Assembly (NCBI GenBank): GCA_030699005.1
Contig: JAUYLQ010000018.1
Span: 1-41,272 of the forward strand
Reading direction: 5' to 3'
Source of the DNA: an archaeon
Lineage (GTDB): Archaea; Nanobdellota; Nanobdellia; Pacearchaeales; GW2011-AR1
DNA length: 41,272 nucleotides
Numbering within the stretch: the stretch's first letter is position 1; the number at the start of each line of letters is the position of its first letter. The notes beneath the pieces were generated by a model that saw nothing but the letters and a program-made list of their open reading frames with translations, had not been told where the DNA came from and did not search any database. The translations under genes were made by a program, and so were the position numbers. This document shows, one piece after another, positions 619 to 17,321 of this stretch.

Positions 619-1449
619 ATGAATAAAGAGGATTTTTTAAAAAAAATTGAAATAGAGCTCAAAATTTCCAAAAATTCAGTGTATACTATAAAAAATTACC
701 TTAAATCAAATAAGACACTTCTTGAATTCACAAAGAAAAAACCGGAAGAAGTGAATGAAGACGACGTAAAGGAGTATATTGCCGAAAATTTATCTGAGCG
801 CTCCGCAATTTCAATTATAATGTTTCTTGCCGCCGTAAAATTTGCGTATTCCTCAATTTTGAAAAAAGATTTAACCGCAAACATAAAAAGACCAAAAAGA
901 GAAAAGAAAATTCCGACAGTTTTAACCAAAAAAGAGGTGAAAAGCCTTTTTGATGCTTTAATCTCAAAAAAGTCCAGGCTCATGGTTTCTTTGATGTATG
1001 CGGCGGGTTTGAGAGTTTCAGAACTCTCTTACCTTAAAGTTGAAAATTTGAACTTTGAGGAGAAAATAGGGATGATAAAACAGGCAAAGGGCAAAAAGGA
1101 CAGGACTTTTAATATTCCAACATTTCTTTTTTTAAAATTAAAAAAACAGGTGGAAAGGCAAAAGAAAGTGGGAGAAGTTTACCTTTTTTCGGGAAGAAAT
1201 GGAAAGAAGATGTCTGAAAGAAATCTACAAAAGATTGTAAGAAATGCTGGAATAAAAGCTGAAATAAAAAAAGAGGTTCACTGTCACACTCTTAGGCACT
1301 CTTTTGCAACACATCTTTTAGAAAATGGCACTGACATCCGGCATATACAGGTTCTTCTGGGGCACTCGGACCTTAGTACCACTCAGATATATGCCCATGT
1401 TTCCAACGAAGAAATAAAGAAAATAAAAAGTCCGATTGATACATTATAA
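619..1449 (+). CDS. xerA: Tyrosine recombinase, archaeal XerA/XerCD-like
   Basis: C-terminal catalytic box 'AGLRVSEL...HTLRHSFATHLLENGTDIRHIQVLLGHSDLSTTQIYAHV' fits the R..HxxR..H..Y pattern. An N-terminal core-binding-like region is present. Confidence 0.8.
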   Translation: MNKEDFLKKIEIELKISKNSVYTIKNYLKSNKTLLEFTKKKPEEVNEDDVKEYIAENLSERSAISIIMFLAAVKFAYSSILKKDLTANIKRPKREKKIPTVLTKKEVKSLFDALISKKSRLMVSLMYAAGLRVSELSYLKVENLNFEEKIGMIKQAKGKKDRTFNIPTFLFLKLKKQVERQKKVGEVYLFSGRNGKKMSERNLQKIVRNAGIKAEIKKEVHCHTLRHSFATHLLENGTDIRHIQVLLGHSDLSTTQIYAHVSNEEIKKIKSPIDTL

Positions 1450-3165: not shown

Positions 3166-3277
3166 GTGGATTTGCTGAAGGCTGTTAATATTCTTTGGCT
3201 TACCCGCAAAATAAAAACTGGCGTGGATGTGCCGGATGTCACCAATATTCTTTGGTTCGTCCAGCACTCTCGATAGT
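3166..3277 (+). repeat. Two tandem 55-57 nt units, each carrying a copy of the 5' end of tRNA-Leu(CAA) followed by a CCAA-N6-TTGG hairpin/palindrome
   Basis: The degenerate copy GTGGATTTGCTGAAGG is at 3166. The exact copy GTGGATGTGCCGGA is at 3223-3236. The real tRNA starts at 3278. The hairpins are GTTAA-TATTCT-TTGGC (3184-3199) and ACCAA-TATTCT-TTGGT (3241-3256). Confidence 0.85.
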
Positions 3278-3360
3278 GTGGATGTGCCGGAGTGGTCAAA
3301 CGGGAGGGACTCAAGATCCCTTAGCTTATGCTTACCTAGGTTCGAATCCTAGCATCCACA
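3278..3360 (+). tRNA. tRNA-Leu(CAA), class II with a long variable arm
   Basis: Hand-folded cloverleaf: acceptor GTGGATG/CATCCAC, anticodon stem AGGGA/TCCCT, loop CTCAAGA, variable arm TAGCTTATGCTTAC, T arm CTAGG-TTCGAAT-CCTAG, discriminator A. Confidence 0.9.
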
Positions 3361-3454
3361 TAGAATTTTGATTTGAACCATGTCTTGGTCAATTGAATCC
3401 CGAAAATCTTTTGGCATTATCCTTACAAATTTCAAGATGGCAGTAGTTTGAGCC

Positions 3455-3475
3455 AGCATCCACATAGAATTTTGA
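3455..3475 (+). repeat. Direct repeat of the 3' end of tRNA-Leu(CAA) plus trailer
   Basis: AGCATCCACATAGAATTTTGA occurs at 3351-3371 and again at 3455-3475. The preceding AGTTTGAGCC resembles a decayed T arm (GGTTCGAATCC). Confidence 0.85.
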
Positions 3476-3665
3476 CTTTAAAGTCTTGGGTTTTTCACTC
3501 GCATTCTCGTCCAAAATTTCATTCCTAAAGGGTGTTACTTCTTAAAAAGACCATTACTCCAAAATCTTTAAATTTCCAAAATATCTCTAAATTTTAGAAA
3601 TTGTTACCTTTCTTGAATTACTACCGGAGAGAAAGGTTTATAAGTAACTATTAAGTGGTAAACAA

Positions 3666-4133
3666 ATGGAAAATGAGGTCAAAGATGCAATAAAGAAGGG
3701 TTTTTCAGAGTTGGGACTGGGGAAAAACCATGAAATACCCCTCCTTTCAGAAGATTCCTTCGATGAAATTGGAAAATCAAAAGTTGATGCCTTGAAAAAT
3801 TCAATCGAGGAAATTCATGAGATGATAAGGGGAAGAGAAAGACTAAGCAGAAAAATTCACGATGAAGGTGAAACTCTGAAGTCTGAAATAAAAGGATATT
3901 TGTCTGAAAATGAAAAAATGCAGATTGCGTCTTCAGACCCGACAAGAGAAAAAAATGATTTGCGGCACAAAAAAATAGAGATTTCTGAACTTCAGATGAA
4001 TGAAAAAATAGGGTGCTGGAAAGATGTTGCTCTTTTAAAAAAAGAGCTTAGAGAGTACGAAAGGGAACTTCTTGAAAAGGAAGAACGTCTAAAAATTTTC
4101 AATAAAATTTTGAAGGAGGAAAAATTGAATTAA
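3666..4133 (+). CDS. Hypothetical coiled-coil protein, E/K-rich
   Basis: 155 aa ORF with heptad-like charged sequence. TTTATAA at 3637-3643 lies about 26 nt upstream of the ATG, which suggests a leaderless transcript. It is the first gene of the tightly spaced cassette. Confidence 0.6.
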   Translation: MENEVKDAIKKGFSELGLGKNHEIPLLSEDSFDEIGKSKVDALKNSIEEIHEMIRGRERLSRKIHDEGETLKSEIKGYLSENEKMQIASSDPTREKNDLRHKKIEISELQMNEKIGCWKDVALLKKELREYERELLEKEERLKIFNKILKEEKLN

Positions 4134-4134
4134 A

Positions 4135-4962
4135 ATGTCAAACTTAACTAATTCAGAATTAATGAGGAGATTAGATTGCGGAAACTCAGTAACATCAAAT
4201 GAAGCGGCAGATGAATTAATTGACCGTTACCTTGTTAATAAGTATAAACCATCCCTTGAAAAAGTGTCTGAAAAGGTAGAACCTACAAAGAGAGGGTTGC
4301 CGGAATCCAATTCAAATGTAAAAGTGGGGGTTTTGGAAAATTTAATTTTTGTAACAAATAAAGAACTCTACACAGAAATCGTCGGGTATATGGATAAAAC
4401 TTTTCCTGAATCAAAAAGATATCTTTCGGGGATGCTGGCTTTTGACGATGGAGTAATGAAAGGTTCAAATCCCTATGTTGTCGTAGGAACAGACATGTTT
4501 TTAAGAAAAGTAAATTCAGGGTATAGGGTCGCAACCCAGGCAGACTTAGAAAAGAATTTAGATATGTTTTCAGGGTTTTACGTTGATTCTGGCTTAGCAA
4601 TAAGAGACTCCAGCGTATTAAAAGGACTGAAAATAAGTAATGATAACCTCCCCGTATTTATTAATTTAAGAGGTTTGGAAATAAATAATAATTTCGGGTT
4701 TACGCTCTCTAAAGAATCTTTGATTAAGAGGGCAAAATGTTTAAACTGGACTAATGGAACTCACTTTTCAAAAATAAATGATTATGGGCTTCCTAAAGAA
4801 GAAGATAAATCTTCTAAAAGACAAATTCGGACTGGAAACTCTGCTTTGTCTAGGGTTTACCTCTACGGGGGTGGTTACCTGGATGTCGGGGACGGCGATC
4901 TCGGGGACTCTAGTGACTATGGTCGGGTGGTTCTTGCAAAAGTAAATGGGGGGAAATATTAA
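4135..4962 (+). CDS. Hypothetical protein; distant paralog of the ORF at 35575-36294
   Basis: AAGGAGG lies upstream and the ATG is 1 nt after the previous stop. Shares the motifs 'G.l.F..G...GSNP' and 'GLP....R(T)...LSR..L..GG' with the second ORF. No family recognised. Confidence 0.6.
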   Translation: MSNLTNSELMRRLDCGNSVTSNEAADELIDRYLVNKYKPSLEKVSEKVEPTKRGLPESNSNVKVGVLENLIFVTNKELYTEIVGYMDKTFPESKRYLSGMLAFDDGVMKGSNPYVVVGTDMFLRKVNSGYRVATQADLEKNLDMFSGFYVDSGLAIRDSSVLKGLKISNDNLPVFINLRGLEINNNFGFTLSKESLIKRAKCLNWTNGTHFSKINDYGLPKEEDKSSKRQIRTGNSALSRVYLYGGGYLDVGDGDLGDSSDYGRVVLAKVNGGKY

Positions 4963-4963
4963 A

Positions 4964-6931
4964 ATGAATTCAGGAATATCTGTTGAAGAAATTGCAAGAA
5001 AGTTAAAACCAATACTCGGAAAAAAAATTGATGAGATTTATTTTAGATATATGAATAGTGAAAGCTATGAGGAAAAGGGGGAGATTACCCAGTTTTTAAC
5101 AGCACTTTACCAGAAGCATTTGAATCAACTTTTAGATAAAGATTTTTTACTTGAACCTCCAAAGGAAGAAATTCTTCAAGGGGAATATTCGCTTGCGAAA
5201 GTAAGTTATGCCGGAAAAACTCTTTTTCCATTTTACTTAAGAGAAAAAGACTGGCCAAGGCACGTATGTGTCACAGGTATGAGCGGAAGTGGAAAAACAA
5301 CTTTTGCATTAAATATTTTAAACAAATTTATAGAGAAAGATAAGCCTTTTTTAGTTTTTGACTGGAAAAAAAGTTTTAGGCCTTTAATGAAGATGGACAA
5401 TTCTGTTATGTGTTTTACGGTCGGAAACGAGGGGGTAAGTAACCTATTTAAAACAAACATAAACAGGCCTCCAAAAGGAGTTTCACCTAAAGAGTGGATT
5501 AATACTCTTTGTGATTTACTCACTGAAAGTTTTAATGTTTCATACGGAGTTCATAAGATTCTTCTTGAAACATTAGATGAGACTTTTAGGGGATGGGGAG
5601 TTTACGAAGGCTCTAACCTTTATCCAAACTGGGAGCATGTAAGAAGGATGCTTGAAGTAAAAGCAAGAGATTCCAAGGGAAGGGAAACAGGGTGGTATGA
5701 AAGTGCATTAAGGGTCGCAACCGTTCTCACTTTTGGGGACTTTGGAAAAGTTATAAACTACGACGGAAAAAAGAGCCTTTCAGTAGATGAGTTATTTAAT
5801 AAAAAAGTAGTTTTCGAGTTAAATTCATTGTCAAACATAGAGAAAAAGTTTTTTTGTGAATACATTTTAACTTATATCTACAAATTAAAAAAGGCCGGAA
5901 GTGAAAAAAATAATGGAGATTTCAATCACGCAATTTTAGTTGACGAAGCTCATAACATTTTCTTAAAGAAAAGAACGAGCTTTATGTCAGAATCAGTAAC
6001 GGACATGATTTACCGTGAAATGCGTGAATATGGAACAAGTTTGATTTGTTTGGATCAGCATATTTCAAAATTGAGTGATACAGTCGTGGGAAACAGTGCT
6101 TGTCACGTTGCATTCCAGCAACAGCTTCCAGAAGACGTTGATGAAATAAGTTCATTAATGCAGTTAAAGCAAAAAAAAGAAATTTTTACTCAACTTTCTG
6201 TAGGTTCAGCAATCGTAAAACTTTCAGAAAGGTACACATCCCCGTTTTTAGTGGAAGTTCCATTTACTGATTTAAGAAATGCAACTTTTGAAGACTCAAA
6301 AATAAGAAGCAAGATGGGAGCAGTTATCGAAGGATATGAAATTGAAAAAAATAACCCCGAGTTTAAGAAAGAGTTAATTGGAGAAAGTGAAGAGGAAGCA
6401 ATGAAAAGAGTTGATATCCGCCAAGTAAAAACAAGGAAAAAGGAATTTCAGGAAGTTAGAGAGTTCACAAAAACCCAAAAAGTTTTGTATGACTTTGTTA
6501 TTTCAAAGCAAAAAGAAAATAAAAAATTAAATGAAATTGAAAGGCTTCTTGACTCAGGGATTTCTTCAGGGTATTATACGAAAAAAGATGTGTTAATTGT
6601 AATAAATAAGACTTTAAGTGAGAAATTAAATAAAGGAAATGAAAAGAAAGAAGAAGGTTTAGAAGCTCCATTCATTCCATCCGACTTGTCCAAGGAAGAG
6701 CTTTTGTTTGTAGACTTTCTAAAAAGTTCTCCGAACCATGGCCTGTCAACAGTTGAAATTTACAAAGAACTTGGGTTATCATCAAGAAAAGGAAATGTTG
6801 TAAAAAAGAAACTCACAGAAAAAGGATTAGTAGAAATAGTTGAAGAGAGAAGTCCAAAAGGCTGGAAAAAATTACTAAAATTATCACATTCAAATTCAAA
6901 TAACTTAAACGAAATTTCAACAAACAACTAA
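4964..6931 (+). CDS. HerA/FtsK-superfamily (DUF87/AAA_10-like) P-loop ATPase with a charged linker and a C-terminal winged-helix DNA-binding region
   Basis: Walker A 'VCVTGMSGSGKTT', Walker B 'AILVDEAHNIF', and downstream 'LICLDQH'. The C-terminus 'LFVDFLKSSPNHGLSTVEIYKELGLSSRKGNVVKKKLTEKGLVEIVEE' is wHTH-like. The start at 4964 is preferred because a GGGGGG SD lies 10-16 nt upstream. An alternative ATG is at 4946. Confidence 0.75.
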   Translation: MNSGISVEEIARKLKPILGKKIDEIYFRYMNSESYEEKGEITQFLTALYQKHLNQLLDKDFLLEPPKEEILQGEYSLAKVSYAGKTLFPFYLREKDWPRHVCVTGMSGSGKTTFALNILNKFIEKDKPFLVFDWKKSFRPLMKMDNSVMCFTVGNEGVSNLFKTNINRPPKGVSPKEWINTLCDLLTESFNVSYGVHKILLETLDETFRGWGVYEGSNLYPNWEHVRRMLEVKARDSKGRETGWYESALRVATVLTFGDFGKVINYDGKKSLSVDELFNKKVVFELNSLSNIEKKFFCEYILTYIYKLKKAGSEKNNGDFNHAILVDEAHNIFLKKRTSFMSESVTDMIYREMREYGTSLICLDQHISKLSDTVVGNSACHVAFQQQLPEDVDEISSLMQLKQKKEIFTQLSVGSAIVKLSERYTSPFLVEVPFTDLRNATFEDSKIRSKMGAVIEGYEIEKNNPEFKKELIGESEEEAMKRVDIRQVKTRKKEFQEVREFTKTQKVLYDFVISKQKENKKLNEIERLLDSGISSGYYTKKDVLIVINKTLSEKLNKGNEKKEEGLEAPFIPSDLSKEELLFVDFLKSSPNHGLSTVEIYKELGLSSRKGNVVKKKLTEKGLVEIVEERSPKGWKKLLKLSHSNSNNLNEISTNN

Positions 6932-7013
6932 TAATCGACATTGACTGCATAAAAATAAGGCTTAACAAAATAACCTTAAAAATGTGTCAAAAAAGATTTT
7001 TAGAAAAATGCTT

Positions 7014-7176
7014 GAAATACCTTTAAAGTCGAAAAAGACTTTGAAGAAAAACCCTCGCGGTCGCTCAAAAGACCAAGAGAAATACCTTTGAACAAGAAGT
7101 TCAAAGAATGAAAAATCCTACTTTTAGGTATTTCCCCTTCTGAAATACCCCCGAAATACCCTGAAATTTGGTATTT
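7014..7176. repeat. Iteron/palindrome array built on the 8-mer GAAATACC
   Basis: Direct copies at 7014, 7079, 7142 and 7153. Inverted copies GGTATTTC at 7127-7134 and GGTATTT at 7170-7176. Also inverted repeats AAAGTC/GACTTT (7025-7042) and CTTTGAAC/GTTCAAAG (7086-7106). Confidence 0.85.
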
Positions 7177-7230
7177 AACGACGTTCTTTAGTAATTATTT
7201 TCTTTATTAATTAAATAAAAAGGTTTGCAA

Positions 7231-7932
7231 ATGAAACAAATTCTCAGTTTTATTAAAAATCAATGGGTCGAAATTCTTTTCTGGCTTCAAATAATCATGT
7301 CCTGGATTTACACTATCCCCTTAGTCATTCAAATCATCTCAGGAAAAACTGGTGGCCTAAACCTTGCAACATATTCTATTTACCTGATTTACCTTGGGTT
7401 AAGTCTCTCTTTAGCTTTTTCTTCCTTCTTCTCGCTTAAGAAAGAAATAGGAAACTTGCCAAATTTTCAACAGCAAAAAGCGTTAAAGGCAAGAAAGCAG
7501 ACAATAATCATCTTTTCACAATGGGCCTTTTTAGTAAGCCTTGTCTTATTATTTGGATTAAGAAATATAGTCTGGAAAGAGAGAGATACCGTCATCTGCT
7601 TGATTATCTTAGTTTTATCGCTTTTAACGCTAATTAAATATAAAGGATTGAAAGACCCATATTCAAAAGGGTTTCTTAATGTTTGGTGCAAATCCGTTCC
7701 TCAATTGTGGCTTGGCTATACAATTTTTGCAGACGCTAGTTCAGAGGGCCTTCCATTTTTGACCTTATTTTTTGGATATCTTACTGCTCTTCAAAGATTA
7801 ATTCAAGTCTGGATTGCAGGAAGAAGGGGGATTTGGGATAAGTCAACAAAGGGGCTAATGATGGGAGAAGGATCGAATGTTCTTTCTTGGAGTATTGTAG
7901 TCGTTCTTTGGGTAGTTTTCAGGCTAAATTAA
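7231..7932 (+). CDS. Seven-TM membrane protein, possibly PQ-loop repeat family (3+1+3 architecture)
   Basis: Two PQ-loop-like segments sit at the expected TM1 and TM5 positions: 'IPLVIQIISGKTGGLNLATY' and 'SVPQLWLGYTIFADASSEGLPFLTL'. The ATG at 7231 follows AAAAAGG. The track start at 7225 is a TTG. Confidence 0.45.
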   Translation: MKQILSFIKNQWVEILFWLQIIMSWIYTIPLVIQIISGKTGGLNLATYSIYLIYLGLSLSLAFSSFFSLKKEIGNLPNFQQQKALKARKQTIIIFSQWAFLVSLVLLFGLRNIVWKERDTVICLIILVLSLLTLIKYKGLKDPYSKGFLNVWCKSVPQLWLGYTIFADASSEGLPFLTLFFGYLTALQRLIQVWIAGRRGIWDKSTKGLMMGEGSNVLSWSIVVVLWVVFRLN

Positions 7933-7963
7933 AATAATTAATAAATAAAAAGGAGTGTGTGAG

Positions 7964-8164
7964 ATGATGTTTCAAGGGCCATCAATTCCAATCGCAATAT
8001 TCACATCTAGTTTATCTCTTATTGTTTATCTTTGTTCTACTCTAGCTTTTTCCCTGTTTTATGAAGGAACTTCCGATATTCCCAGGATAATTACAGCAAT
8101 TTCAATTGTTCCAAGTTTCTATTTTTCAATAAAAATAGTTGAAAAATTACAAAAAATTAACTAA
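7964..8164 (+). CDS. Small two-TM membrane protein
   Basis: 66 aa hydrophobic ORF with an AAAGGAG SD about 9 nt upstream of the ATG at 7964. The track start at 7955 is a GTG. Confidence 0.5.
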   Translation: MMFQGPSIPIAIFTSSLSLIVYLCSTLAFSLFYEGTSDIPRIITAISIVPSFYFSIKIVEKLQKIN

Positions 8165-8201
8165 CAATTTTTAATAAATTAAAAAATTAAAGAGGTGTTA
8201 A

Positions 8202-8816
8202 ATGAATTCTTTTATTCTCCTCATTCTTTTATTAATCAATTTTTCAATATCTTGGTTCAATGCTTGGTCAGCCGGCAGATTTTGGACTGAGTCAAAAATA
8301 ATGGGTGGTTGGACACGCTTACTCATATGGTGTGCTGTTATTATGTCCGCATGTGGCTTTACTTGGGTTTATTTAACAATAATCACTGCAATTTTATTAG
8401 GTTTTGGATGGCTTTCTCCACGGGCAGGGGAAGTAATGTTTAGTCTGGGTTACTTAATTATAATTGGTCCGGTAATTGGTTCGGGATTTGGGATTTGGAT
8501 TCATTCATTAGTTCAGGCATATAAAACAAAAAGGTTTGGGGATGTTGCTGTTGCAGGGTGGAATACTTTTGCACAAGTCCATAATATTTACAATGCAGCA
8601 AAGGAGGTTCCTAGTGCATGGAAGAGTGTTGTTGATGGTCTGAAGGGGGATTCCGATGATACTAAAGGAGTCGCAATTTTACTAATAGTCATTTTGGCTG
8701 TTGCAGGAGGAGCATTAACGACTGCAGGAATTGCAAGAAGAGCAGATCGCACACATGTTATAAATTTTTCACGAAGCATGAAAAACCTGAATAAAAAATC
8801 TCGCGATTCTTATTAA
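8202..8816 (+). CDS. Polytopic membrane protein (about 5 TM), no recognised family
   Basis: 204 aa with an AGAGGTG SD upstream. Hydrophobic segments are rich in W and G. Confidence 0.6.
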   Translation: MNSFILLILLLINFSISWFNAWSAGRFWTESKIMGGWTRLLIWCAVIMSACGFTWVYLTIITAILLGFGWLSPRAGEVMFSLGYLIIIGPVIGSGFGIWIHSLVQAYKTKRFGDVAVAGWNTFAQVHNIYNAAKEVPSAWKSVVDGLKGDSDDTKGVAILLIVILAVAGGALTTAGIARRADRTHVINFSRSMKNLNKKSRDSY

Positions 8817-8841
8817 ATTAAAATTTTAAATGTCCATTTTT

Positions 8842-8931
8842 TACCCCCGCAAGCACCCCAAATTTATTATCAGTTCATTCTGGGCGGGGGTTCTAATTAA
8901 TTTTTTATTAACTAAACAAAAAGGTGAAAAA
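8842..8931 (+). promoter_or_regulatory. Copy A of a conserved hairpin / AT-rich promoter-like / SD cassette
   Basis: 8-bp GC stem ACCCCCGC (8843-8850) / GCGGGGGT (8884-8891). This is followed by CTAATTAATTTTTTATTAA and AAAAGGTGAAAAAATG. It aligns over its full 93 nt with copy B at 10092-10184. Confidence 0.7.
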
Positions 8932-9186
8932 ATGCCAACTCAAATGGTTTTTTTAGTGTTAATCTTCTTAATTCTTGTCTTGTTTACCTCTATAAGGTAT
9001 AAAAAATTTACCTTTAGAGGATTCTTTTTAAGTGTTTTAATGGGTGTGGGAGTATATTTCTTCCTATTCATTTTCTCCACCTCAACTCCACCTACTGGGT
9101 TTTTTATATGGGTAGTCTCAATTTTAACAGCATTTATTTCCGGGATTATTTATGGACTGTTTTCCGAACAGTTTCTTTATCGCTAG
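8932..9186 (+). CDS. Small three-TM membrane protein
   Basis: The internal ATG at 8932 (MPTQMVF...) is preceded by AAAAGGTGAAAAA, identical to the leader of the gene at 10182. Confidence 0.55.
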   Translation: MPTQMVFLVLIFLILVLFTSIRYKKFTFRGFFLSVLMGVGVYFFLFIFSTSTPPTGFFIWVVSILTAFISGIIYGLFSEQFLYR

Positions 9187-9230
9187 GGTGAAAAAATTTA
9201 ATCAAAATTTAAAATAATGAGAGGGCAGTC

Positions 9231-9518
9231 ATGAAAAAATCAAAAATGAATCAACAAGTTTCCGCACTTATACTTTTATTGGTCTTGGGAATGGTGATTC
9301 TTGGAGTAGCAAAGTATTATTTATGGTCTTTTGATCAAATCATGCTGAGTTTTTTAATCGAAGGCTTTCTTTGTTTTGCGCTTTCAGTTCTTTTCGCAAG
9401 ATTTTCAAAAAATAAAGAGGTCTTTTGGACGGATAGTTCTATCGGGGCATCTATTTTTTTAATAACAGTCGTTGTAGTCTGGGTTCTAGGCAGAATTTAT
9501 CTGGCTCAATTTCAATGA
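9231..9518 (+). CDS. Small three-TM membrane protein
   Basis: 95 aa. Its first 15 nt, ATGAAAAAATCAAAA (MKKSK), are identical to the start of the next gene at 9553. Confidence 0.55.
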   Translation: MKKSKMNQQVSALILLLVLGMVILGVAKYYLWSFDQIMLSFLIEGFLCFALSVLFARFSKNKEVFWTDSSIGASIFLITVVVVWVLGRIYLAQFQ

Positions 9519-9552
9519 AATAACTTAATTTTAATTAATTAAAGGCAGAATT

Positions 9553-10083
9553 ATGAAAAAATCAAAATCTTTTAGTTTAGCATTTCTCTTGCTTGGAGCA
9601 TTAATCGCGATTTCTTTATTGGCATACTCCGTGAAAAATTTGTATGAAGAAATGAATGTTGAAATGGTAGTTTTCTGGTTAGTCCTAAATCTGTTCTCTA
9701 TAGTGTTAGGATATTCTTCGCTTGAATCTCTTGTAAAAATATTGAGAGAAGATCAGGGTGGAATTAAAAAGAAGTTCATTTTTGTTCTTAAGATGGTTTA
9801 TCAGGGAAGTTTATCCCTCATCTTGTTTTTGCTCGGGGCTTTTTTATTGTTAATTACCTTTTTAGTCTGCTTTTCTGAAGTTTTTAAGGAGTACTTACCT
9901 TTTTTGGATAACCCAAAAAATGGAGAGTTCCCCGTTTTAGTTATCTCCGTACTTGTCCTATTATCCGGATCAATTTCCATAATCAAGTACTCTTTCTTGT
10001 TCGAAAGATCTTTTGAAAAAAATATTTCAAAATTTAAAAAAGGGGAGATAGAAGAATTTGAGTTTTTGAAAGCCAATAATTAA
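9553..10083 (+). CDS. Membrane protein (4-5 TM), no recognised family
   Basis: 176 aa with an MKKSK N-terminus, hydrophobic segments and a charged C-terminal tail. Confidence 0.55.
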   Translation: MKKSKSFSLAFLLLGALIAISLLAYSVKNLYEEMNVEMVVFWLVLNLFSIVLGYSSLESLVKILREDQGGIKKKFIFVLKMVYQGSLSLILFLLGAFLLLITFLVCFSEVFKEYLPFLDNPKNGEFPVLVISVLVLLSGSISIIKYSFLFERSFEKNISKFKKGEIEEFEFLKANN

Positions 10084-10091
10084 AAATTCTT

Positions 10092-10181
10092 TACGCCCCC
10101 GAAAGAGCTTCAATTTTCTGTCTAGTTCGTTCTGGACGGGGGCACTAATTTATTTTTAATTAATAATTAAAAGGTGAAAAA
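10092..10181 (+). promoter_or_regulatory. Copy B of the conserved hairpin / promoter-like / SD cassette
   Basis: 7-bp GC stem GCCCCCG (10095-10101) / CGGGGGC (10137-10143). The loop ends in AGTTCGTTCTGG (copy A has AGTTCATTCTGG). It is followed by CTAATTTATTTTTAATTAA and AAAAGGTGAAAAAATG. Confidence 0.7.
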
Positions 10182-10718
10182 ATGAAAAAGAAAATTTTCT
10201 GGGGGATTGTCATAGGTCTAACTATAATCGGAACATGGGGAGGAAGTGAAAAAACTTTTTTATTTTATAATGTGAAGTCAGGAACAAGCTGGGGGATAAA
10301 TTTGGGGTTTCTGAATCAATTTCAAGAAGGTTCGATTCATAATGGATTAAATATCTCTGTTGCTGCATATATGGGAGAAGGTTCGATTCATAATGGGATA
10401 AATCTTTCCATTTTTACTATTATGAAAAAGGATTCAAAGGTTAGGGGAGTGAATCTTTCACTGTTTAGTTTTCCCCCAGAAGGAAGTGAAGGAGGAGTTG
10501 TTGAAGGAGTTGAAATAGGAATCATTGGCGTAGCAAACAATGATTCTGAACCTATAGCAAACAATGAATCTTCTGGACCTATCTCTCGAAAAGTGGAGGG
10601 GGTTCAAATAAATTTGCTGTATAACACTTCTATAGAAGGACCAACAGTTCAAATTGGGGTCTATAATGCCATTTATAAAAATGAAAAATGGCATGAATCA
10701 CTTTTATGCAATTTCTGA
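10182..10718 (+). CDS. N-terminally anchored or secreted repeat protein with degenerate G-[VI]-N-[LI]-[SG] repeats
   Basis: N-terminal hydrophobic segment 'IFWGIVIGLTIIG'. Repeats include 'EGSIHNGLNISV', 'EGSIHNGINLSI', 'RGVNLSLF' and 'EGVQINLLYN'. An exact 20-nt DNA repeat occurs at 10326 and 10377. Confidence 0.6.
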   Translation: MKKKIFWGIVIGLTIIGTWGGSEKTFLFYNVKSGTSWGINLGFLNQFQEGSIHNGLNISVAAYMGEGSIHNGINLSIFTIMKKDSKVRGVNLSLFSFPPEGSEGGVVEGVEIGIIGVANNDSEPIANNESSGPISRKVEGVQINLLYNTSIEGPTVQIGVYNAIYKNEKWHESLLCNF

Positions 10719-10736
10719 TAATCCATTTTATCTCAA

Positions 10737-10774
10737 AAAACCTCCCCATTCTGCCCTTCTTCGGGGGAGGTTTT
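10737..10774 (+). terminator. Stem-loop followed by a T-run just after the stop of the repeat-protein gene
   Basis: AAAACCTCCCC (10737-10747) pairs with GGGGAGGTTTT (10764-10774) across a 16-nt loop, and the stem runs into TTTTT. Confidence 0.6.
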
Positions 10775-10979
10775 TGCTTACAATTAAAAATCAAACCCAA
10801 AAACTCTTCTTTTTACAAACCTTAGGCAAGTCCTTGCCAAACAAAATCCAAAATTTAAAATGCAAAAGCTAAGTTTTAGAATAATCTAAAAATCAGGTTA
10901 AACAATATTTTTTTTGCAAAATTTTCAGGATATTTTTGCATTCCACTACATTTTTATAGATGTTTTTTTGTTTTTTAAT

Positions 10980-12020
10980 GTGAAAAGAGTGGTGATAATC
11001 GGAGGAGGTTTTACCGGGGCAAATACCGCAAAAATTTTAGAGAAAAATTTTGAGGTAATGCTAATTGATACAAAAGACTATTTTGAGTTCACTCCATCTA
11101 TTTTAAAGACTTTGACAAATCCCGAATTATTTAATAAGATTAAATTAAACCACCGGGATTACCTAAAAAAATCTCGTCTTGTTTTGGGAAAAGCAGAAAA
11201 AATTTCAAAAAATTCCGTTTTTGTCAATGGAAGAGAAATTTTTTTTGATTATCTTGTCATTGCAGCAGGTTCTTCTTATGAGACCCCATTAAAAAACCAT
11301 AATTCTTCTCCAATTTCAAAGTTAAACAATATAGAGGGGATTCATAAAAAAATTGAATTTTTTAAAAAAATTGTTATTGTTGGAGGAGGCCCGGTCGGAG
11401 TAGAGCTCGCTTCAGAATTAATAACTTTTTATCCGGGTAAGGAAGTGGTTCTTTTCACTTCATCCGGAAGTCTTATACCGAGGAATAGTCAAAAAAGCCA
11501 AAAAATTGCTCAAGATTTTTTGAAAAAAAAAGGGGTAAAAATAAACCTCAATAAACGAATTATTTCAAAAGAAAACACTTCTATTCTAGAAAATGGAAAG
11601 GTCATAACAGGAGACTATTTTTTTCTCTGCACTGGAATAAAAAATAATTCCGGTTTCATAGAAAAAAGCACGAAAGAAATGCTAAATGAAAAAAATCAGG
11701 TGAAAGTCAACAGTTTTTTGCAGGTTAGGGGATTTAAAAATATCTTTGCCGGGGGAGATATAATTGACACCGATGAAGAGAAAACCGCGCAATCTGCAGT
11801 TCTGCATTCATGGATAATTAACCGGAATATTATAAACATGGAAAAAAGAAAGAGTTTGATTAAGTATAAAATAAAGAAGCGCCTGACATTAATCAGCCTC
11901 GGAAGGGCCAACGGGATATTAGAGTATAAGGGCTTTAGCCTGGGGGGTTTAATTCCCGCAATTTTAAAAAAGATTATTGAAAAAAGGCAGTTAATCGGTC
12001 TTAAAACAAGATTATTTTAA
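10980..12020 (+). CDS. FAD-dependent pyridine nucleotide-disulfide oxidoreductase, type II NADH dehydrogenase-like
   Basis: Rossmann motifs 'VVIIGGGFTGANTA' and 'IVIVGGGPVGVELASEL', plus 'IFAGGDI'. The likely start is the GTG at 10980, with TTTTATAG about 25 nt upstream (leaderless). The track start at 10914 is a TTG. Confidence 0.75.
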   Translation: MKRVVIIGGGFTGANTAKILEKNFEVMLIDTKDYFEFTPSILKTLTNPELFNKIKLNHRDYLKKSRLVLGKAEKISKNSVFVNGREIFFDYLVIAAGSSYETPLKNHNSSPISKLNNIEGIHKKIEFFKKIVIVGGGPVGVELASELITFYPGKEVVLFTSSGSLIPRNSQKSQKIAQDFLKKKGVKINLNKRIISKENTSILENGKVITGDYFFLCTGIKNNSGFIEKSTKEMLNEKNQVKVNSFLQVRGFKNIFAGGDIIDTDEEKTAQSAVLHSWIINRNIINMEKRKSLIKYKIKKRLTLISLGRANGILEYKGFSLGGLIPAILKKIIEKRQLIGLKTRLF

Positions 12021-16193: not shown

Positions 16194-16205
16194 TTACATT
16201 AAAAA

Positions 16206-16297
16206 TGCGTCGGCCGGGATTCGAACCCGGGTCAACTGGTCACTTCGCAATTTAATTGCCTGGAAGCCAGTTATACTGACCACTGTACTACCAACGC
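16206..16297 (-). tRNA. tRNA-Gly(TCC) with a 20-nt intron at the canonical 37/38 position
   Basis: Acceptor GCGTTGG/CCGACGC, anticodon stem ACTGG/CCAGT, loop CTTCCA|A. The intron is GGCAATTAAATTGCGAAGTG (plus-strand 16241-16260). T arm CCGGG-TTCGAAT-CCCGG. Confidence 0.85.
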
Positions 16298-16311
16298 ACA
16301 TATCTAATTAC

Positions 16312-16761
16312 TCAGATTTTCTTTAATAAACTTTTTTGTTTTCTTAAAAACTCCTTATGGGGAGGGGCCGTATTCTCAGGAATATCTTTACGAAAGTTGA
16401 AATCTTCAGATTCTTCATTAAGTTTAACTTCAACGGACAAAGGTTCCGCAAGAAATACAAGCGAAACAGAGTGCCTCTCGAATCCGAGAACTTTTTCATG
16501 AGGAAATTCTATGTAACCTAAAAATTTCTTTATTTCAATGTTTAAACCTGTCTCCCTTTTTGCGATTCGTTTTCCAGCCTCCTCAAGACTCTCATTTAAA
16601 AGGACACCTCCTCCTGGCAAGTGCCACATTCCTCTAAATGGTTCAATAGCTCTTTTTGTGAATAAAATCCCCTCTTTAGACTTAATCAATAAATCTATTG
16701 TTAAGCGGGGAACTCTTGAATAAATTGATTTAAATTCTTCATGGGAAAATTCTTTTGGCAT
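16312..16761 (-). CDS. NUDIX hydrolase
   Basis: Nudix box 'GGGVLLNESLEEAGKRIAKRETGL' (GX5EX7REUXEEXGU-like). Confidence 0.8.
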   Translation of the reverse strand: MPKEFSHEEFKSIYSRVPRLTIDLLIKSKEGILFTKRAIEPFRGMWHLPGGGVLLNESLEEAGKRIAKRETGLNIEIKKFLGYIEFPHEKVLGFERHSVSLVFLAEPLSVEVKLNEESEDFNFRKDIPENTAPPHKEFLRKQKSLLKKI

Positions 16762-16798
16762 TTAAACCTGAAAAGAAATGCCTTAATAAAATTTTTGG

Positions 16799-16816
16799 AC
16801 GCCCGAGGCAGGATTT
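16799..16816 (-). repeat. Direct repeat of the 3' end of tRNA-Arg
   Basis: ACGCCCGAGGCAGGATTT occurs at 16799-16816 and at 16867-16884. The second copy is the T-loop/acceptor 3' strand of the real tRNA. Confidence 0.85.
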
Positions 16817-16867
16817 TGCCCTTTAGGGTACACCTTGTGTGGCACCTGCGAGCAGGTTCTTGAAAAA

Positions 16868-16942
16868 CGCCCGAGGCAGGATTTGAACCTGCGACCTACG
16901 CATTAGGAGTGCGTCGCTCTATCCAGGCTGAGCTACCCAGGC
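16868..16942 (-). tRNA. tRNA-Arg(CCT)
   Basis: Acceptor GCCTGGG/CTCGGGC (with G-U pairs), D arm GCTC..GAGC, anticodon stem ACGCA/TGCGT, loop CTCCTAA, T arm GCAGG-TTCAAAT-CCTGC. Confidence 0.88.
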
Positions 16943-16946
16943 AAAT

Positions 16947-17029
16947 TGCGAGGACTAGGATTCGAACCTAGGTAAGGATAAACCACTAGAGCCTTAATCT
17001 AGCCCGTTTGACCACTCCGGCATCCCCGC
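16947..17029 (-). tRNA. tRNA-Leu (class II); the anticodon loop TTAAGGC reads AAG in the canonical register
   Basis: Same length (83 nt) and arm layout as the Leu(CAA) gene. Acceptor GCGGGGA/TCCTCGC, anticodon stem CTAGA/TCTAG. Lies 4 nt upstream of tRNA-Arg. Confidence 0.85.
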
Positions 17030-17050
17030 ATGTACGATGATGATGGATGA

Positions 17051-17087
17051 GCCAAAGAATATTGGCGACCTCCGGCATCCCCGCATG
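17051..17087 (-). repeat. Partial copy of the tRNA-Leu 5' end plus a CCAA-N6-TTGG hairpin, 55 nt upstream of the real 5' end
   Basis: CTCCGGCATCCCCGCATG occurs at 17015-17032 and 17070-17087 (plus strand). The hairpin GCCAA-N6-TTGGC is at 17051-17066. Confidence 0.85.
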
Positions 17088-17147
17088 AATTTCTTATAAA
17101 CCGGCGGTATAAAAAGTTTTATAAACTGGGCTAATCTTCAAAAATTG

Positions 17148-17259
17148 AAGACGGCCCTAGTAGGTTGGAAACACCTGTTCTCTTTCCGAACACAGAAGTT
17201 AAGCTTCCTACGTTACTGGCTTTAGTGTCCGACAAGATGCGAAACCAATAAGTCGTCTT
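17148..17259 (+). rRNA. 5S rRNA (ends approximate, +/- 5 nt)
   Basis: Hallmark 'CCGAACACAGAAGTTAAGC'. Terminal helix AAGACGGC (17148-17155) / GTCGTCTT (17252-17259). TATAAAAA lies upstream at about 17108. Confidence 0.8.
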
Positions 17260-17321
17260 TCATTTTCTTTTAAATTCCTTTGATTAACAAACTTTATATA
17301 TCAAAAAATTTTCAAGTTTGA

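What the first reader, a model, noticed from the sequence alone, without database searches (positions are those of the whole stretch)
3666..6931. Orphan three-gene cassette: coiled-coil protein, unknown protein, and a HerA/FtsK-type ATPase fused to a C-terminal winged helix
The three plus-strand genes are joined by spacers of 1 nt, so they probably form an operon. They are bracketed by the two longest noncoding stretches in the window (3361-3665 and 6932-7230). The ATPase has clear Walker A/B and DUF87/HerA-like features. It lacks TM segments and ends in a roughly 200 aa charged linker plus at least one wHTH. That motor-plus-DNA-reader layout recalls FtsK with its gamma domain. I recognise no family for the two partner proteins. 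No NurA-like partner is evident, so it does not look like the housekeeping HerA-NurA pair. Candidate roles are DNA translocation or packaging by an integrated plasmid or virus remnant, segregation, or a defence module. All of these are inference.
Basis: partly seen in the sequence, partly recalled or inferred. Interest (0 to 1): 0.75.

Follow-up and report, generated by a model that had tools for sequence, protein, structure and literature searches.

The report
Conserved archaeal DNA-motor gene pair
The "orphan three-gene cassette" is really a two-gene operon (a small helical protein plus a HerA-type ring ATPase with a DNA-reading tail), inherited vertically across the ultra-small Nanoarchaeota, more conserved than nearby ribosomal proteins and followed by its own conserved repeat-and-hairpin element; the middle gene is a recent passenger.

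Summary
The three ORFs, their 1-nt spacers, the Walker motifs, the absence of TM segments and the C-terminal wHTH are all real. The cassette is neither orphan nor a trio. Gene A (3666-4133) lies upstream of a gene C homologue (4964-6931 here) in 75 of 75 informative Nanoarchaeota loci. Gene B (4135-4962) occurs in none. It sits in a hypervariable slot between A and C that is empty in 35 loci and holds unrelated genes in 40. C's ATPase domain averages 72% identity, above the neighbouring S9, L13 and L18e (59-66%), and tracks their divergence. The pair lies inside the ribosomal-protein/RNA-polymerase gene cluster. This argues for a vertically inherited housekeeping gene and against a mobile-element remnant or defence module. 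C has a HerA/VirB4-clade fold (Foldseek E about 1e-13) but meets no characterised family's cut-off and has no nuclease or membrane partner. A new finding is a conserved cis element just downstream of C (7011-7178): oriented GAAATACC copies, 35-fold enriched, plus a covarying hairpin. The same 8-mer is embedded in A and C through synonymous codon choice. My best reading, which is inferred, is a sequence-guided DNA translocase working like FtsK/KOPS or TraB/clt. An RNA-level role for the element remains open.

The parts
3666..4133 (+). Gene A: 155-aa E/K/L-rich helical (coiled-coil-like) protein, the obligate partner of the ATPase
   Evidence: A homologue (42-86% id) lies upstream on the same strand in 75/75 loci with upstream DNA. 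132 homologues were found, none with a Pfam domain. The C-terminal half is conserved, with W118, D120 and L124-R129 invariant. Heptad periodicity spans residues 36-90 and 115-154.
3732..3739 (+). In-frame copy of the 8-mer GAAATACC (codons E-I-P) in the poorly conserved 5' part of gene A
   Evidence: Across loci, EIP in the A N-terminus or C linker is encoded by GAAATACC in 32/41 cases, against 9/72 elsewhere (Fisher p=3e-12).
4135..4962 (+). Gene B: 275-aa passenger gene occupying the hypervariable slot between A and C; not part of the conserved module
   Evidence: Absent from all 80 related loci. Only 18 homologues exist (42-50% id), all in other contexts. Its first 31 residues are 52% identical to the N-termini of unrelated slot genes in L005 and L007. 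The core fold (residues 70-235, pLDDT 80-90) has no match in PDB or BFVD.
4964..6931 (+). Gene C: 655-aa soluble HerA/VirB4-clade P-loop ATPase with an N-terminal helical domain, ATPase core, linker plus three-helix domain, and a C-terminal wHTH
   Evidence: The ATPase domain averages 72% identity across 80 loci.
5246..6268 (+). ATPase core (residues about 95-435), including Walker A at 5276-5299 and Walker B at 5933-5956
   Evidence: Foldseek: DndH-C 8e-14, HerA 4d2i 1e-13, VirB4 4ag6 1e-10. HMM against PDB: HerA 7e-5. Motifs checked by translation.
6692..6883 (+). C-terminal winged helix-turn-helix (residues 577-640); recognition helix SSRKGNVVKKK and wing GWKK
   Evidence: AF2 secondary structure is H-H-H-beta-beta. 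S606, R608, G610, N611, K614, G633, W634 and K636 are invariant in 22 diverse homologues. Weak MarR/TrmB, PHROG regulator and Csa3 hits. Sequence confirmed by translation.
7011..7056 (+). First GAAATACC copy followed by a 10-bp hairpin with a conserved C-G-N4-A-G apex
   Evidence: Covariance-model hit of 48 bits. All 33 hits in 1.29 Mb are on the + strand, and 32 lie just after gene C. The apical helix is 87.5% paired, with compensatory changes in 5 of 5 pairs.
7013..7178 (+). Array of six 8-mer sites (7013+, 7078+, 7126-, 7141+, 7152+, 7169-) interleaved with hairpins at 7021-7046, 7059-7074, 7086-7106, 7127-7149 and 7154-7176
   Evidence: RNA fold z = -6.2 on the + strand and -3.0 on the - strand. 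Architecture is conserved in relatives. 35-fold enrichment across loci.
3362..3665 (+). Upstream intergenic region, presumed to hold the operon promoter; also holds a 27-nt duplicate of the tRNA-Leu 3' end (3455-3481)
   Evidence: No promoter was verified.

Best explanation
Genes A and C form a vertically inherited, housekeeping two-gene operon of Nanoarchaeota (Woesearchaeales/Pacearchaeales-type DPANN archaea). C is a soluble HerA/VirB4-clade P-loop ATPase, expected to work as a ring, with a flexibly tethered C-terminal wHTH. A is its translationally coupled helical partner. Immediately downstream lies a conserved cis element made of mostly co-oriented GAAATACC 8-mers interleaved with hairpins, and further copies are written into A and C by synonymous codon choice. 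I propose that the wHTH reads these 8-mers and loads or orients the motor at this chromosomal site. The motor then translocates the chromosome for segregation or clearance at division, as FtsK does with KOPS, SpoIIIE with SRS and Streptomyces TraB with the 8-bp repeats of clt. A would act as a tether or regulator. Gene B is an unrelated passenger that replaced the body of an earlier gene in a fast-turnover slot between A and C. Shown here: the pairing, synteny, conservation, fold, motif array, codon bias and hairpin covariation. Inferred: the ring assembly, DNA translocation, wHTH-to-8-mer recognition and the cellular role.
For: A-C pairing holds in 75/75 loci, and the junction is almost always TAAAATG with a GGAGG-like site about 10 nt upstream. 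213 species-representative genomes matched the scan. The pair sits between S9-L13-L18e and RpoD-S11-S4-S13. C's ATPase domain averages 72% identity against 66/59/59% for S9/L13/L18e, with Spearman 0.72-0.79 against S9 and L13. The fold is HerA/DndH/VirB4-like with intact Walker A and B. The wHTH has an invariant recognition helix and wing. GAAATACC occurs at 2.79/kb in the 700 nt after C and 0.08/kb elsewhere, 86% in the + orientation, with recurrent 10-11 nt pairs. At least three sites (<=1 mismatch) occur in 56/70 loci against 4.3% of background windows. Codon test p=3e-12. A more distant high-GC homologue keeps an A-like gene upstream and has CGATACC three times downstream. TraB reads direct 8-bp clt repeats through a C-terminal HTH (PMC4447253, PMC5365140).
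Against: Nothing here shows that the wHTH binds the 8-mer. The element also carries hairpins with compensatory and G-U changes, found only on the + strand, which points to an RNA (or single-strand) structure rather than duplex binding sites. Unlike KOPS, the 8-mer is concentrated at one locus; its genome-wide distribution could not be checked. C has no membrane anchor and no identified link to a division apparatus. Ring assembly was not modelled. 14 of 70 loci have fewer than three sites. More distant family members occur in mobile-element-like contexts.
Confidence: 0.42

Rival explanations
1. The downstream element acts as RNA. It is a structured 3' UTR or a separate small RNA whose GAAAUACC motifs and hairpins are bound by a protein, possibly A or C, to control the stability or translation of the operon's own mRNA. 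The in-gene copies serve the same purpose. The ATPase's cellular job is then not revealed by the element.
For: The window's + strand folds with z = -6.2 against -3.0 for the - strand. Across 39 loci, mean z is -2.8 on the + strand and -1.8 on the - strand (p=0.005). The hairpin after the first motif covaries, with many G-U pairs. All 33 covariance-model hits are on the + strand, and 86% of motif copies are in the + orientation.
Against: Some copies are inverted and form palindromic pairs. The 10-11 nt helical-repeat spacing and a conserved wHTH encoded right next to the array fit duplex recognition. No Rfam family matches. Short 34-nt flanks fold about as well on the reverse strand. This reading does not exclude the DNA-loading model.
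Confidence: 0.25
2. The pair is a cell-to-cell DNA transfer motor. It exports or imports chromosomal DNA starting at the repeat array, as with TraB/clt in Streptomyces, TdtA in Thermus or Ced in Sulfolobales. This could serve exchange between these episymbiotic cells or with their hosts.
For: The architecture is the same as TraB: a motor, a C-terminal HTH and direct 8-bp repeats beside the gene (PMC4447253). HerA-like TdtA donates DNA (PMC5365140). The best NCBIfam ATPase-domain hit after an unrelated serine-rich protein family is CedD (PMC11868833). More distant relatives sit in element-like contexts with an integrase, RadC and a toxin-antitoxin pair.
Against: A, B and C have no TM segment and there is no conserved membrane neighbour. 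The CedD score is 55 bits against a cut-off of 600. Conservation above that of ribosomal proteins and strict vertical inheritance are unusual for transfer functions.
Confidence: 0.12
3. C is a divergent DNA-repair HerA helicase that works with a nuclease encoded elsewhere in the genome.
For: The only significant sequence match in PDB is HerA, and the top Foldseek hits include HerA-NurA complexes.
Against: No NurA, Mre11 or Rad50 gene lies within +/-10 kb in any locus. NCBIfam HerA models score 20-21 bits against a cut-off of 800. The N-terminal region is modelled as a helical bundle with one beta-hairpin; by my own knowledge HerA has a beta-barrel there. The wHTH, the A partner and the cis element have no counterpart in HerA-NurA.
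Confidence: 0.08
4. One reading: a remnant of an integrated plasmid or virus (packaging or transfer ATPase), or an anti-phage defence module, with all three genes working together.
For: PADLOC HerA and mad8 models and a PHROG terminase model hit the ATPase domain. A tRNA gene with a duplicated 3' end lies just upstream. HerA-like ATPases are common in archaeal 'dark matter' islands (PMC4158269).
Against: All those hits cover only the P-loop core. The tRNA-Leu is itself syntenic in about 25 of 40 loci, and its repeat pair encloses only about 100 nt. IMG/VR has no relative, and only 22-27% identity ATPase-domain matches occur in plasmids and phages. The gene is at a fixed chromosomal position, more conserved than ribosomal proteins, and its divergence tracks theirs. 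B is absent from every related locus.
Confidence: 0.04

Closest known systems
Streptomyces TraB with its clt locus (FtsK-like conjugative dsDNA translocase)
   Same: A ring-type FtsK-HerA-superfamily motor with a C-terminal HTH and an array of direct 8-bp repeats next to its own gene, which in TraB serves as the loading site (PMC4447253, PMC5365140). Here there is an oriented 8-mer array within 300 nt of the stop codon.
   Different: TraB is plasmid-borne, builds a channel in the membrane (PMC4447253) and belongs to the FtsK branch. C is chromosomal, soluble and of the HerA/VirB4 branch. It has an obligate helical partner, and its element also contains covarying hairpins. Binding is untested.
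FtsK/SpoIIIE with KOPS/SRS
   Same: A motor, a flexible linker and a winged-helix reader of polar 8-mers, serving a housekeeping chromosome-handling role (own knowledge of the family). C is very highly conserved.
   Different: Pfam FtsK_SpoIIIE scores 14.6 bits against a cut-off of 24. There is no gamma-domain hit, no TM domain, and the 8-mer is clustered at one locus rather than known to be spread over the chromosome.
Archaeal/bacterial HerA (HerA-NurA end-resection helicase)
   Same: The closest solved folds and the only significant PDB sequence hit. DUF87 is the HerA central domain.
   Different: No NurA, Mre11 or Rad50 neighbour. The N-terminal domain is modelled as helical rather than the beta-barrel I recall for HerA. 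C has an added wHTH and scores far below the family cut-offs.
VirB4 / CedB / CedD (type IV secretion-like and Ced DNA-import ATPases)
   Same: ATPase-domain similarity: VirB4 4ag6 TM-score 0.70 on the target and CedD E 6e-15.
   Different: CedD and CedB have TM and VirB4-like N-terminal domains and act with membrane CedA/CedE (PMC11868833). None of these features is present here.
Defence HerA systems (SIR2-HerA/Nezha, DUF4297-HerA, DndFGH DndH, TdpAB)
   Same: The same ATPase fold; DndH-C is the top Foldseek hit at 8e-14. PADLOC HerA models hit at 1e-11 to 1e-5.
   Different: No effector partner (SIR2, DUF4297, DndFG, nuclease). Not patchy: the gene has a fixed position and is vertically inherited.

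Membership tests
FtsK-HerA superfamily (P-loop pumping ATPases) | P-loop ATPase core with Walker A and Walker B and the HerA/FtsK-type fold | tested here: met
   GMSGSGKT and ILVDEAHN. DUF87 scores 39.4 bits against a cut-off of 23.2. Foldseek to HerA, DndH and VirB4 gives E 1e-13 to 1e-10.
FtsK-HerA superfamily (P-loop pumping ATPases) | Hexameric ring with a central DNA channel | not testable with these tools
   Only a monomer could be predicted.
HerA (HerA-NurA) | Score above the curated HerA family cut-offs | tested here: not met
   NF040937 scores 20.2 and NF042943 scores 21.5 bits, against cut-offs of 800.
HerA (HerA-NurA) | Adjacent NurA nuclease (often with Mre11/Rad50) | tested here: not met
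   No such Pfam family appears in the called genes of L001-L003. No conserved neighbour other than gene A exists in 80 loci.
HerA (HerA-NurA) | N-terminal beta-barrel (HAS) domain (feature recalled from own knowledge of HerA structures) | tested here: not met
   In the model, residues 7-62 are helical, followed by a single beta-hairpin at 75-92.
FtsK/SpoIIIE | FtsK_SpoIIIE motor domain above the Pfam cut-off | tested here: not met
   14.6 bits against 24, over 30 residues around the P-loop only.
FtsK/SpoIIIE | N-terminal membrane domain | tested here: not met
   Maximum 19-residue hydropathy is 0.91.
FtsK/SpoIIIE | C-terminal winged helix that reads polar 8-mers | tested here: inconclusive
   A wHTH is present and an oriented 8-mer array lies next to the gene, but no gamma-domain profile hit was found and no binding data exist.
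VirB4 / conjugative coupling ATPases | Family score, and neighbouring T4SS membrane components | tested here: not met
   TIGR00929 scores 19 bits against 643 and TraD 16 against 366. There are no T4SS genes nearby.
CedD/CedB (Ced DNA import) | Family score, a TM segment and a VirB4-like N-terminal domain | tested here: not met
   NF053655 scores 54.9 bits against 600 and matches only the C-terminal ATPase part. No TM segment is present. Family features are taken from PMC11868833.
Defence HerA systems (SIR2-HerA, DUF4297-HerA, Dnd, MADS mad8) | Effector partner gene, and patchy, island-like distribution | tested here: not met
   The only partner is the helical protein A. The chromosomal position is fixed and divergence tracks that of ribosomal proteins. 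PADLOC hits are limited to the ATPase core.
TraB/clt-type sequence-guided translocase (functional class, not a homology family) | Motor plus C-terminal HTH plus direct 8-bp repeats beside the gene | tested here: met
   Features of the class are taken from PMC4447253.
TraB/clt-type sequence-guided translocase (functional class, not a homology family) | Specific binding of the HTH to the repeats, and DNA pumping | not testable with these tools
   Needs biochemistry.

The most novel reading that the evidence does not exclude
Nanoarchaeota possess a previously unrecognised, phylum-wide and probably essential chromosome-handling machine. It is a soluble HerA-clade ring translocase that is loaded or oriented by its own winged helix on a dedicated GAAATACC array beside its gene, with a coiled-coil partner. 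It would be the first archaeal counterpart, of independent origin, to sequence-directed translocases such as FtsK/KOPS and TraB/clt. Its operon also carries an internal fast-turnover slot for accessory genes.
Probability: 0.25. Interest if true: 0.85.

Novelty: new variant of a known kind. Interest (0 to 1): 0.66.

Why it matters
To my knowledge, how archaea segregate and clear their chromosomes at division is poorly understood, and no sequence-directed DNA translocase has been described in them. DPANN archaea are uncultured for the most part, so their conserved unknown genes are the main route into their cell biology. This analysis identifies a concrete, testable protein-plus-site pair. The protein is more conserved than neighbouring ribosomal proteins across a whole phylum. 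The candidate recognition sequence is defined (TGAAATACCT), and a 47-nt motif-plus-hairpin element can be synthesised and tested in vitro without cultivating the organism. The A-C slot, where unrelated genes are swapped in and out with the translational-coupling junction preserved, is also an unusual pattern of operon evolution. On the practical side, databases label this family only as 'DUF87 domain-containing protein', and the partner and the cis element are unannotated.

Tried and rejected
1. Integration at the tRNA. The tRNA-Leu 3' end is duplicated (3351-3377 and 3455-3481), but the copies enclose only about 100 nt, no third copy exists downstream of the cassette, and the tRNA is itself syntenic. 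I rejected it as an element boundary.

2. B as a functional partner. It has no family in Pfam, PADLOC, NCBIfam or PHROGs, no structural match in PDB or BFVD and is absent from all related loci.

3. A shared C-terminal docking motif (P-x-K/N-L-x-x-L) on slot proteins. It is enriched (13/63 against 0.85%), but much of this is explained by homology within two clusters and by residues encoded by the GGAGG/TAAAATG junction. I downgraded it to a note.

4. CedD membership, suggested by the NCBIfam hit. Rejected on score and architecture (PMC11868833).

5. A C/D-box sRNA reading of 7111-7166. The Rfam match is 20 bits at E 0.25, and the putative C box is not conserved in relatives.

6. A dif-like or origin-like reading of the array. 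There is no Orc1/Cdc6 among the conserved neighbours, and by my recollection of dif and ORB sites there is no resemblance. It cannot be excluded, because no closed genome was available.

7. Covariation between the recognition helix and the motif variant. Loci L063, L068 and L080 carry GGAATACC and a SSRKGNK helix, which is too few to conclude anything.

8. Literature. Searches for DPANN/HerA/DUF87/FtsK found no description of this family.


Full report
OBSERVATION. The window carries three plus-strand ORFs at 3666-4133 (A, 155 aa), 4135-4962 (B, 275 aa) and 4946/4964-6931 (C). Homologue N-termini and the deposited 655-aa protein place C's start at 4964, so both spacers are 1 nt. With ORFs of at least 45 aa and the RNA genes masked, the two longest empty stretches in the 41-kb window are 3372-3665 and 6932-7224; the next longest is 195 nt. 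C has Walker A GMSGSGKT and Walker B ILVDEAHN, a DUF87 hit above the Pfam cut-off and no TM-like segment. It ends in a modelled wHTH at residues 577-640. The 'linker' is about 135 aa and contains a small three-helix domain. A's coiled-coil nature is only weakly supported. A tRNA-Leu(CAA) gene lies at 3277-3361, directly upstream.

NOT ORPHAN, AND NOT A TRIO. One search with C returned 791 proteins. The best 120 are full-length and 57-82% identical, from Pacearchaeota, Woesearchaeota and Nanoarchaeota MAGs. An exhaustive profile search found 398 representatives (50%-identity clusters) at E<=1e-30. A scan of one genome per GTDB species found relatives in 213 stretches, and I kept 80 loci with up to 10 kb of flank. 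An A homologue (42-86% id) lies upstream on the same strand in all 75 loci that have upstream DNA. B was found in none. The distance from the end of A to the start of C is under 100 nt in 35 loci, 100-500 nt in 21 and at least 500 nt in 19. The gaps are filled by co-oriented, tightly packed ORFs of 60-260 aa. Sixty-three such ORFs (including the window's B) fall into 41 BLAST clusters, and nearly all lack a family assignment; the exceptions are an isochorismatase pair and an FHA domain next to kinase-like proteins. Whatever gene precedes C, the junction is almost always TAAAATG with a GGAGG-like site about 10 nt upstream. Translational coupling is therefore preserved through the turnover. The closest relative (L004; C 82% and A 86% identical) has A and C directly adjacent.

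GENE B. B has 18 homologues (42-50% id). In other DPANN contigs these occur as tandem paralogues beside a MoxR-type AAA_5 ATPase and a protein of about 600 aa carrying a vWA-like VDDSGSM motif (my reading of the sequence). They are never found with A and C. B's first 31 residues are 52% identical to the N-termini of otherwise unrelated slot genes in L005 and L007. B therefore looks chimeric: an old slot gene's start fused to an imported body. Its confident core has no structural match in PDB or BFVD. I conclude that B is a passenger.

HOUSEKEEPING CONTEXT. In about 35 loci the order is as follows: a Xer-like tyrosine recombinase plus a protein of about 142 aa; then S9-L13-L18e on the opposite strand; then tRNA-Leu(CAA), A, the slot and C; then a variable 5-8 kb; then RpoD-S11-S4-S13 on the opposite strand. 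The pair thus sits antisense between two ribosomal-protein/RNA-polymerase gene blocks that, by my recollection, are contiguous in most archaea. In the other loci the neighbours are again housekeeping genes: what look, on inspection of the sequences, like a THUMP-type tRNA methyltransferase, L35Ae and L10e. Measured against the window, C's ATPase domain averages 72% identity (minimum 64%). S9 averages 66%, L13 59% and L18e 59%. C's divergence correlates with theirs (Spearman 0.72 and 0.79 against S9 and L13). No relative exists in 2.9 million IMG/VR contigs. Plasmid and phage collections give only 22-27% identity matches to the ATPase core. Together these results argue strongly against a mobile-element remnant or a defence island. 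More distant family members (210-390 bits) are a mixed group. Two keep an A-like gene upstream (E 2.5e-9 and 7e-5). Some lie beside an integrase, an AbiE toxin-antitoxin pair, RadC or a second DUF87 ATPase, so element-borne paralogues also exist.

WHAT C IS. The model has pLDDT 78. It shows an N-terminal helical bundle (7-62), a beta-hairpin (75-92), the ATPase core (95-435), a long helix, a disordered stretch, a three-helix domain (503-557), a second disordered stretch and the wHTH. Foldseek places the core with DndH-C (8e-14), HerA (1e-13), the SIR2-HerA, DUF4297-HerA and TdpA defence ATPases, and VirB4 (1e-10). By sequence, only S. solfataricus HerA is significant in PDB (7e-5). Every curated family model falls far below its cut-off: HerA about 20 against 800 bits, CedD 55 against 600, VirB4 19 against 643, and FtsK_SpoIIIE 14.6 against 24. 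There is no nuclease, SIR2, T4SS or membrane partner. C is thus a distinct branch of the HerA/VirB4 clade with its own partner (A) and an added wHTH. The wHTH's recognition helix (S606, R608, G610, N611, K614) and wing (G633, W634, K636) are invariant in 22 diverse homologues, even though the C-terminal region overall is only about 41% identical.

A CONSERVED CIS ELEMENT. Five of the window's seven GAAATACC copies lie within 7014-7160, in the 'empty' stretch after C. Allowing two mismatches to TGAAATACCT gives six sites: 7013+, 7078+, 7126-, 7141+, 7152+ and 7169-. Across 73 loci the exact 8-mer occurs at 2.79/kb in the 700 nt after C and at 0.080/kb elsewhere. Of 226 copies, 133 fall in the first 500 nt after the stop codon. 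Of the 133 copies in the 700-nt region that could be typed with their flanks, 86% are in the + orientation. Pairs 10-11 nt apart and a spacing of about 64 nt recur. With one mismatch allowed, 56 of 70 loci have at least three sites in 500 nt, against 4.3% of 2207 background windows. The same 8-mer also occurs in frame, often in tandem, in the weakly conserved 5' part of A (3732-3739 here) and in C's linker in other lineages. There, the tripeptide E-I-P is encoded by GAAATACC in 32 of 41 cases, against 9 of 72 elsewhere in the same loci (Fisher p=3e-12). Selection is therefore acting on the nucleotides and not on the peptide.

The element is also structured. Region 7005-7185 folds as five hairpins on the + strand (z = -6.2; z = -3.0 on the - strand). 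In 39 loci, mean z is -2.8 on the + strand and -1.8 on the - strand (p=0.005). The hairpin that follows the first 8-mer has an invariant C-G-N4-A-G apex and stems that differ between lineages. In 24 diverse loci the apical helix is 87.5% paired, with compensatory changes in all five pairs. Its covariation score is 0.49 against 0.22 in shuffles (0 of 500 reach it). One caveat is that these sequences were chosen for folding well. A 47-nt covariance model found 33 hits in 1.29 Mb searched on both strands. All are on the + strand, 32 lie just after C, and 8 of those are in loci that were not used to build the model. No Rfam family matches.

MECHANISM. The combination matches the logic of three known systems: FtsK with KOPS, SpoIIIE with SRS, and most closely Streptomyces TraB, whose C-terminal HTH reads direct 8-bp repeats in the clt locus (PMC4447253, PMC5365140). 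The elements in common are a ring-motor fold, a tethered and highly conserved wHTH, and a polar 8-mer array beside and inside the motor's own operon. Given the vertical inheritance and extreme conservation, I favour a housekeeping chromosome-handling role, such as loading or orientation at a defined site for segregation or clearance at division, with A as a tether or regulator. This is inference. Ring assembly, DNA pumping and wHTH-to-8-mer binding were not and could not be tested here. The strand-specific covarying hairpins are better explained by an RNA (or single-strand) structure, so an RNA-level regulatory role for the element is a serious rival and may coexist with the DNA model. Cell-to-cell DNA transfer and a NurA-less repair role are less likely. 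Defence or element-remnant readings are very unlikely.

NOVELTY. I found no paper describing this family, and databases call it 'DUF87 domain-containing protein'. It belongs to a known superfamily and probably works along known lines, but it has a new partner, a new domain combination, a new cis element and an unusual operon-internal variable slot. I rate it a new variant of a known kind, with interest 0.66.

Noticed in passing
window 4134-4963; gaps between the A and C homologues in L005-L082: The space between A and C is a hypervariable gene slot. It is empty in 35 loci and filled in 40 by 1-6 co-oriented ORFs from about 40 unrelated clusters. These include a Cys/His hydrolase-like family, kinase-like proteins with an FHA protein, and isochorismatases. 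The TAAAATG coupling junction is always preserved.
   Followed up: yes
window 3166-3255 and 3455-3481, around tRNA-Leu at 3277-3361: The tRNA-Leu(CAA) gene is flanked by partial copies of itself. Its first 14 nt recur at 3223-3236, with a weaker copy at 3166-3179, and its 3' end plus flank recurs at 3455-3481 (27 nt, 93%). The tRNA is on the + strand in the window's clade but on the - strand in most other lineages, which suggests a local inversion or recombination scar.
   Followed up: partly
window 619-1449 and 1436-1873: A Xer-like tyrosine recombinase and an overlapping 145-aa coiled-coil/'Recombinase'-domain protein are syntenic with the A-C pair in about 35 loci. The recombinase averages 67.5% identity, which is also above the neighbouring ribosomal proteins. 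A functional link to the translocase, as between FtsK and XerCD, is unexplored.
   Followed up: partly
L086 2281-7697; L088 1878-6786; L084 6001-8372: Outside this window, the family that gene B belongs to occurs as tandem paralogues (one is a fused double copy). They lie next to a MoxR-type AAA_5 ATPase and a protein of about 600 aa with a vWA-like DxSGS motif. This is an uncharacterised DPANN module in its own right.
   Followed up: partly
L090 1-16587; L091 5216-13427: More distant relatives of C (about 210-390 bits) sit in mobile-element-like surroundings. L090 has a second DUF87 ATPase, a Cdc6 winged-helix fragment, an AbiEi/AbiEii pair and an integrase. L091 has RadC and DUF2958. The chromosomal core gene therefore has element-borne cousins.
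   Followed up: partly
L089 10023-10294: A 61% GC, more distant homologue keeps an A-like gene upstream. The intergenic region after its C gene has CGATACC three times, sharing the ATACC core with GAAATACC. This hints that the site co-evolves with the protein.
   Followed up: no
C-termini of slot proteins, e.g. L006 2429-2728, L008 6963-7388, L019 9667-9984: Thirteen of 63 slot proteins carry P-x-[KNTR]-[LM]-x-x-[LIMF] in their last 25 residues, against 0.85% of other ORFs. Part of this enrichment is due to homology within clusters and part to residues dictated by the ribosome-binding site of gene C.
   Followed up: partly
window 7225-12020: The region downstream of the cis element encodes small proteins with no Pfam family (at least the first is strongly hydrophobic) and differs between related genomes. 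One ORF contains a 51-nt tandem duplication (10325-10426).
   Followed up: no
window 16205-17261: An RNA gene cluster: tRNA-Gly(TCC), which at 94 nt is long enough to contain an intron, tRNA-Arg(CCT), tRNA-Leu(AAG) and a 5S rRNA. The same tRNA set reappears downstream in several related loci.
   Followed up: no
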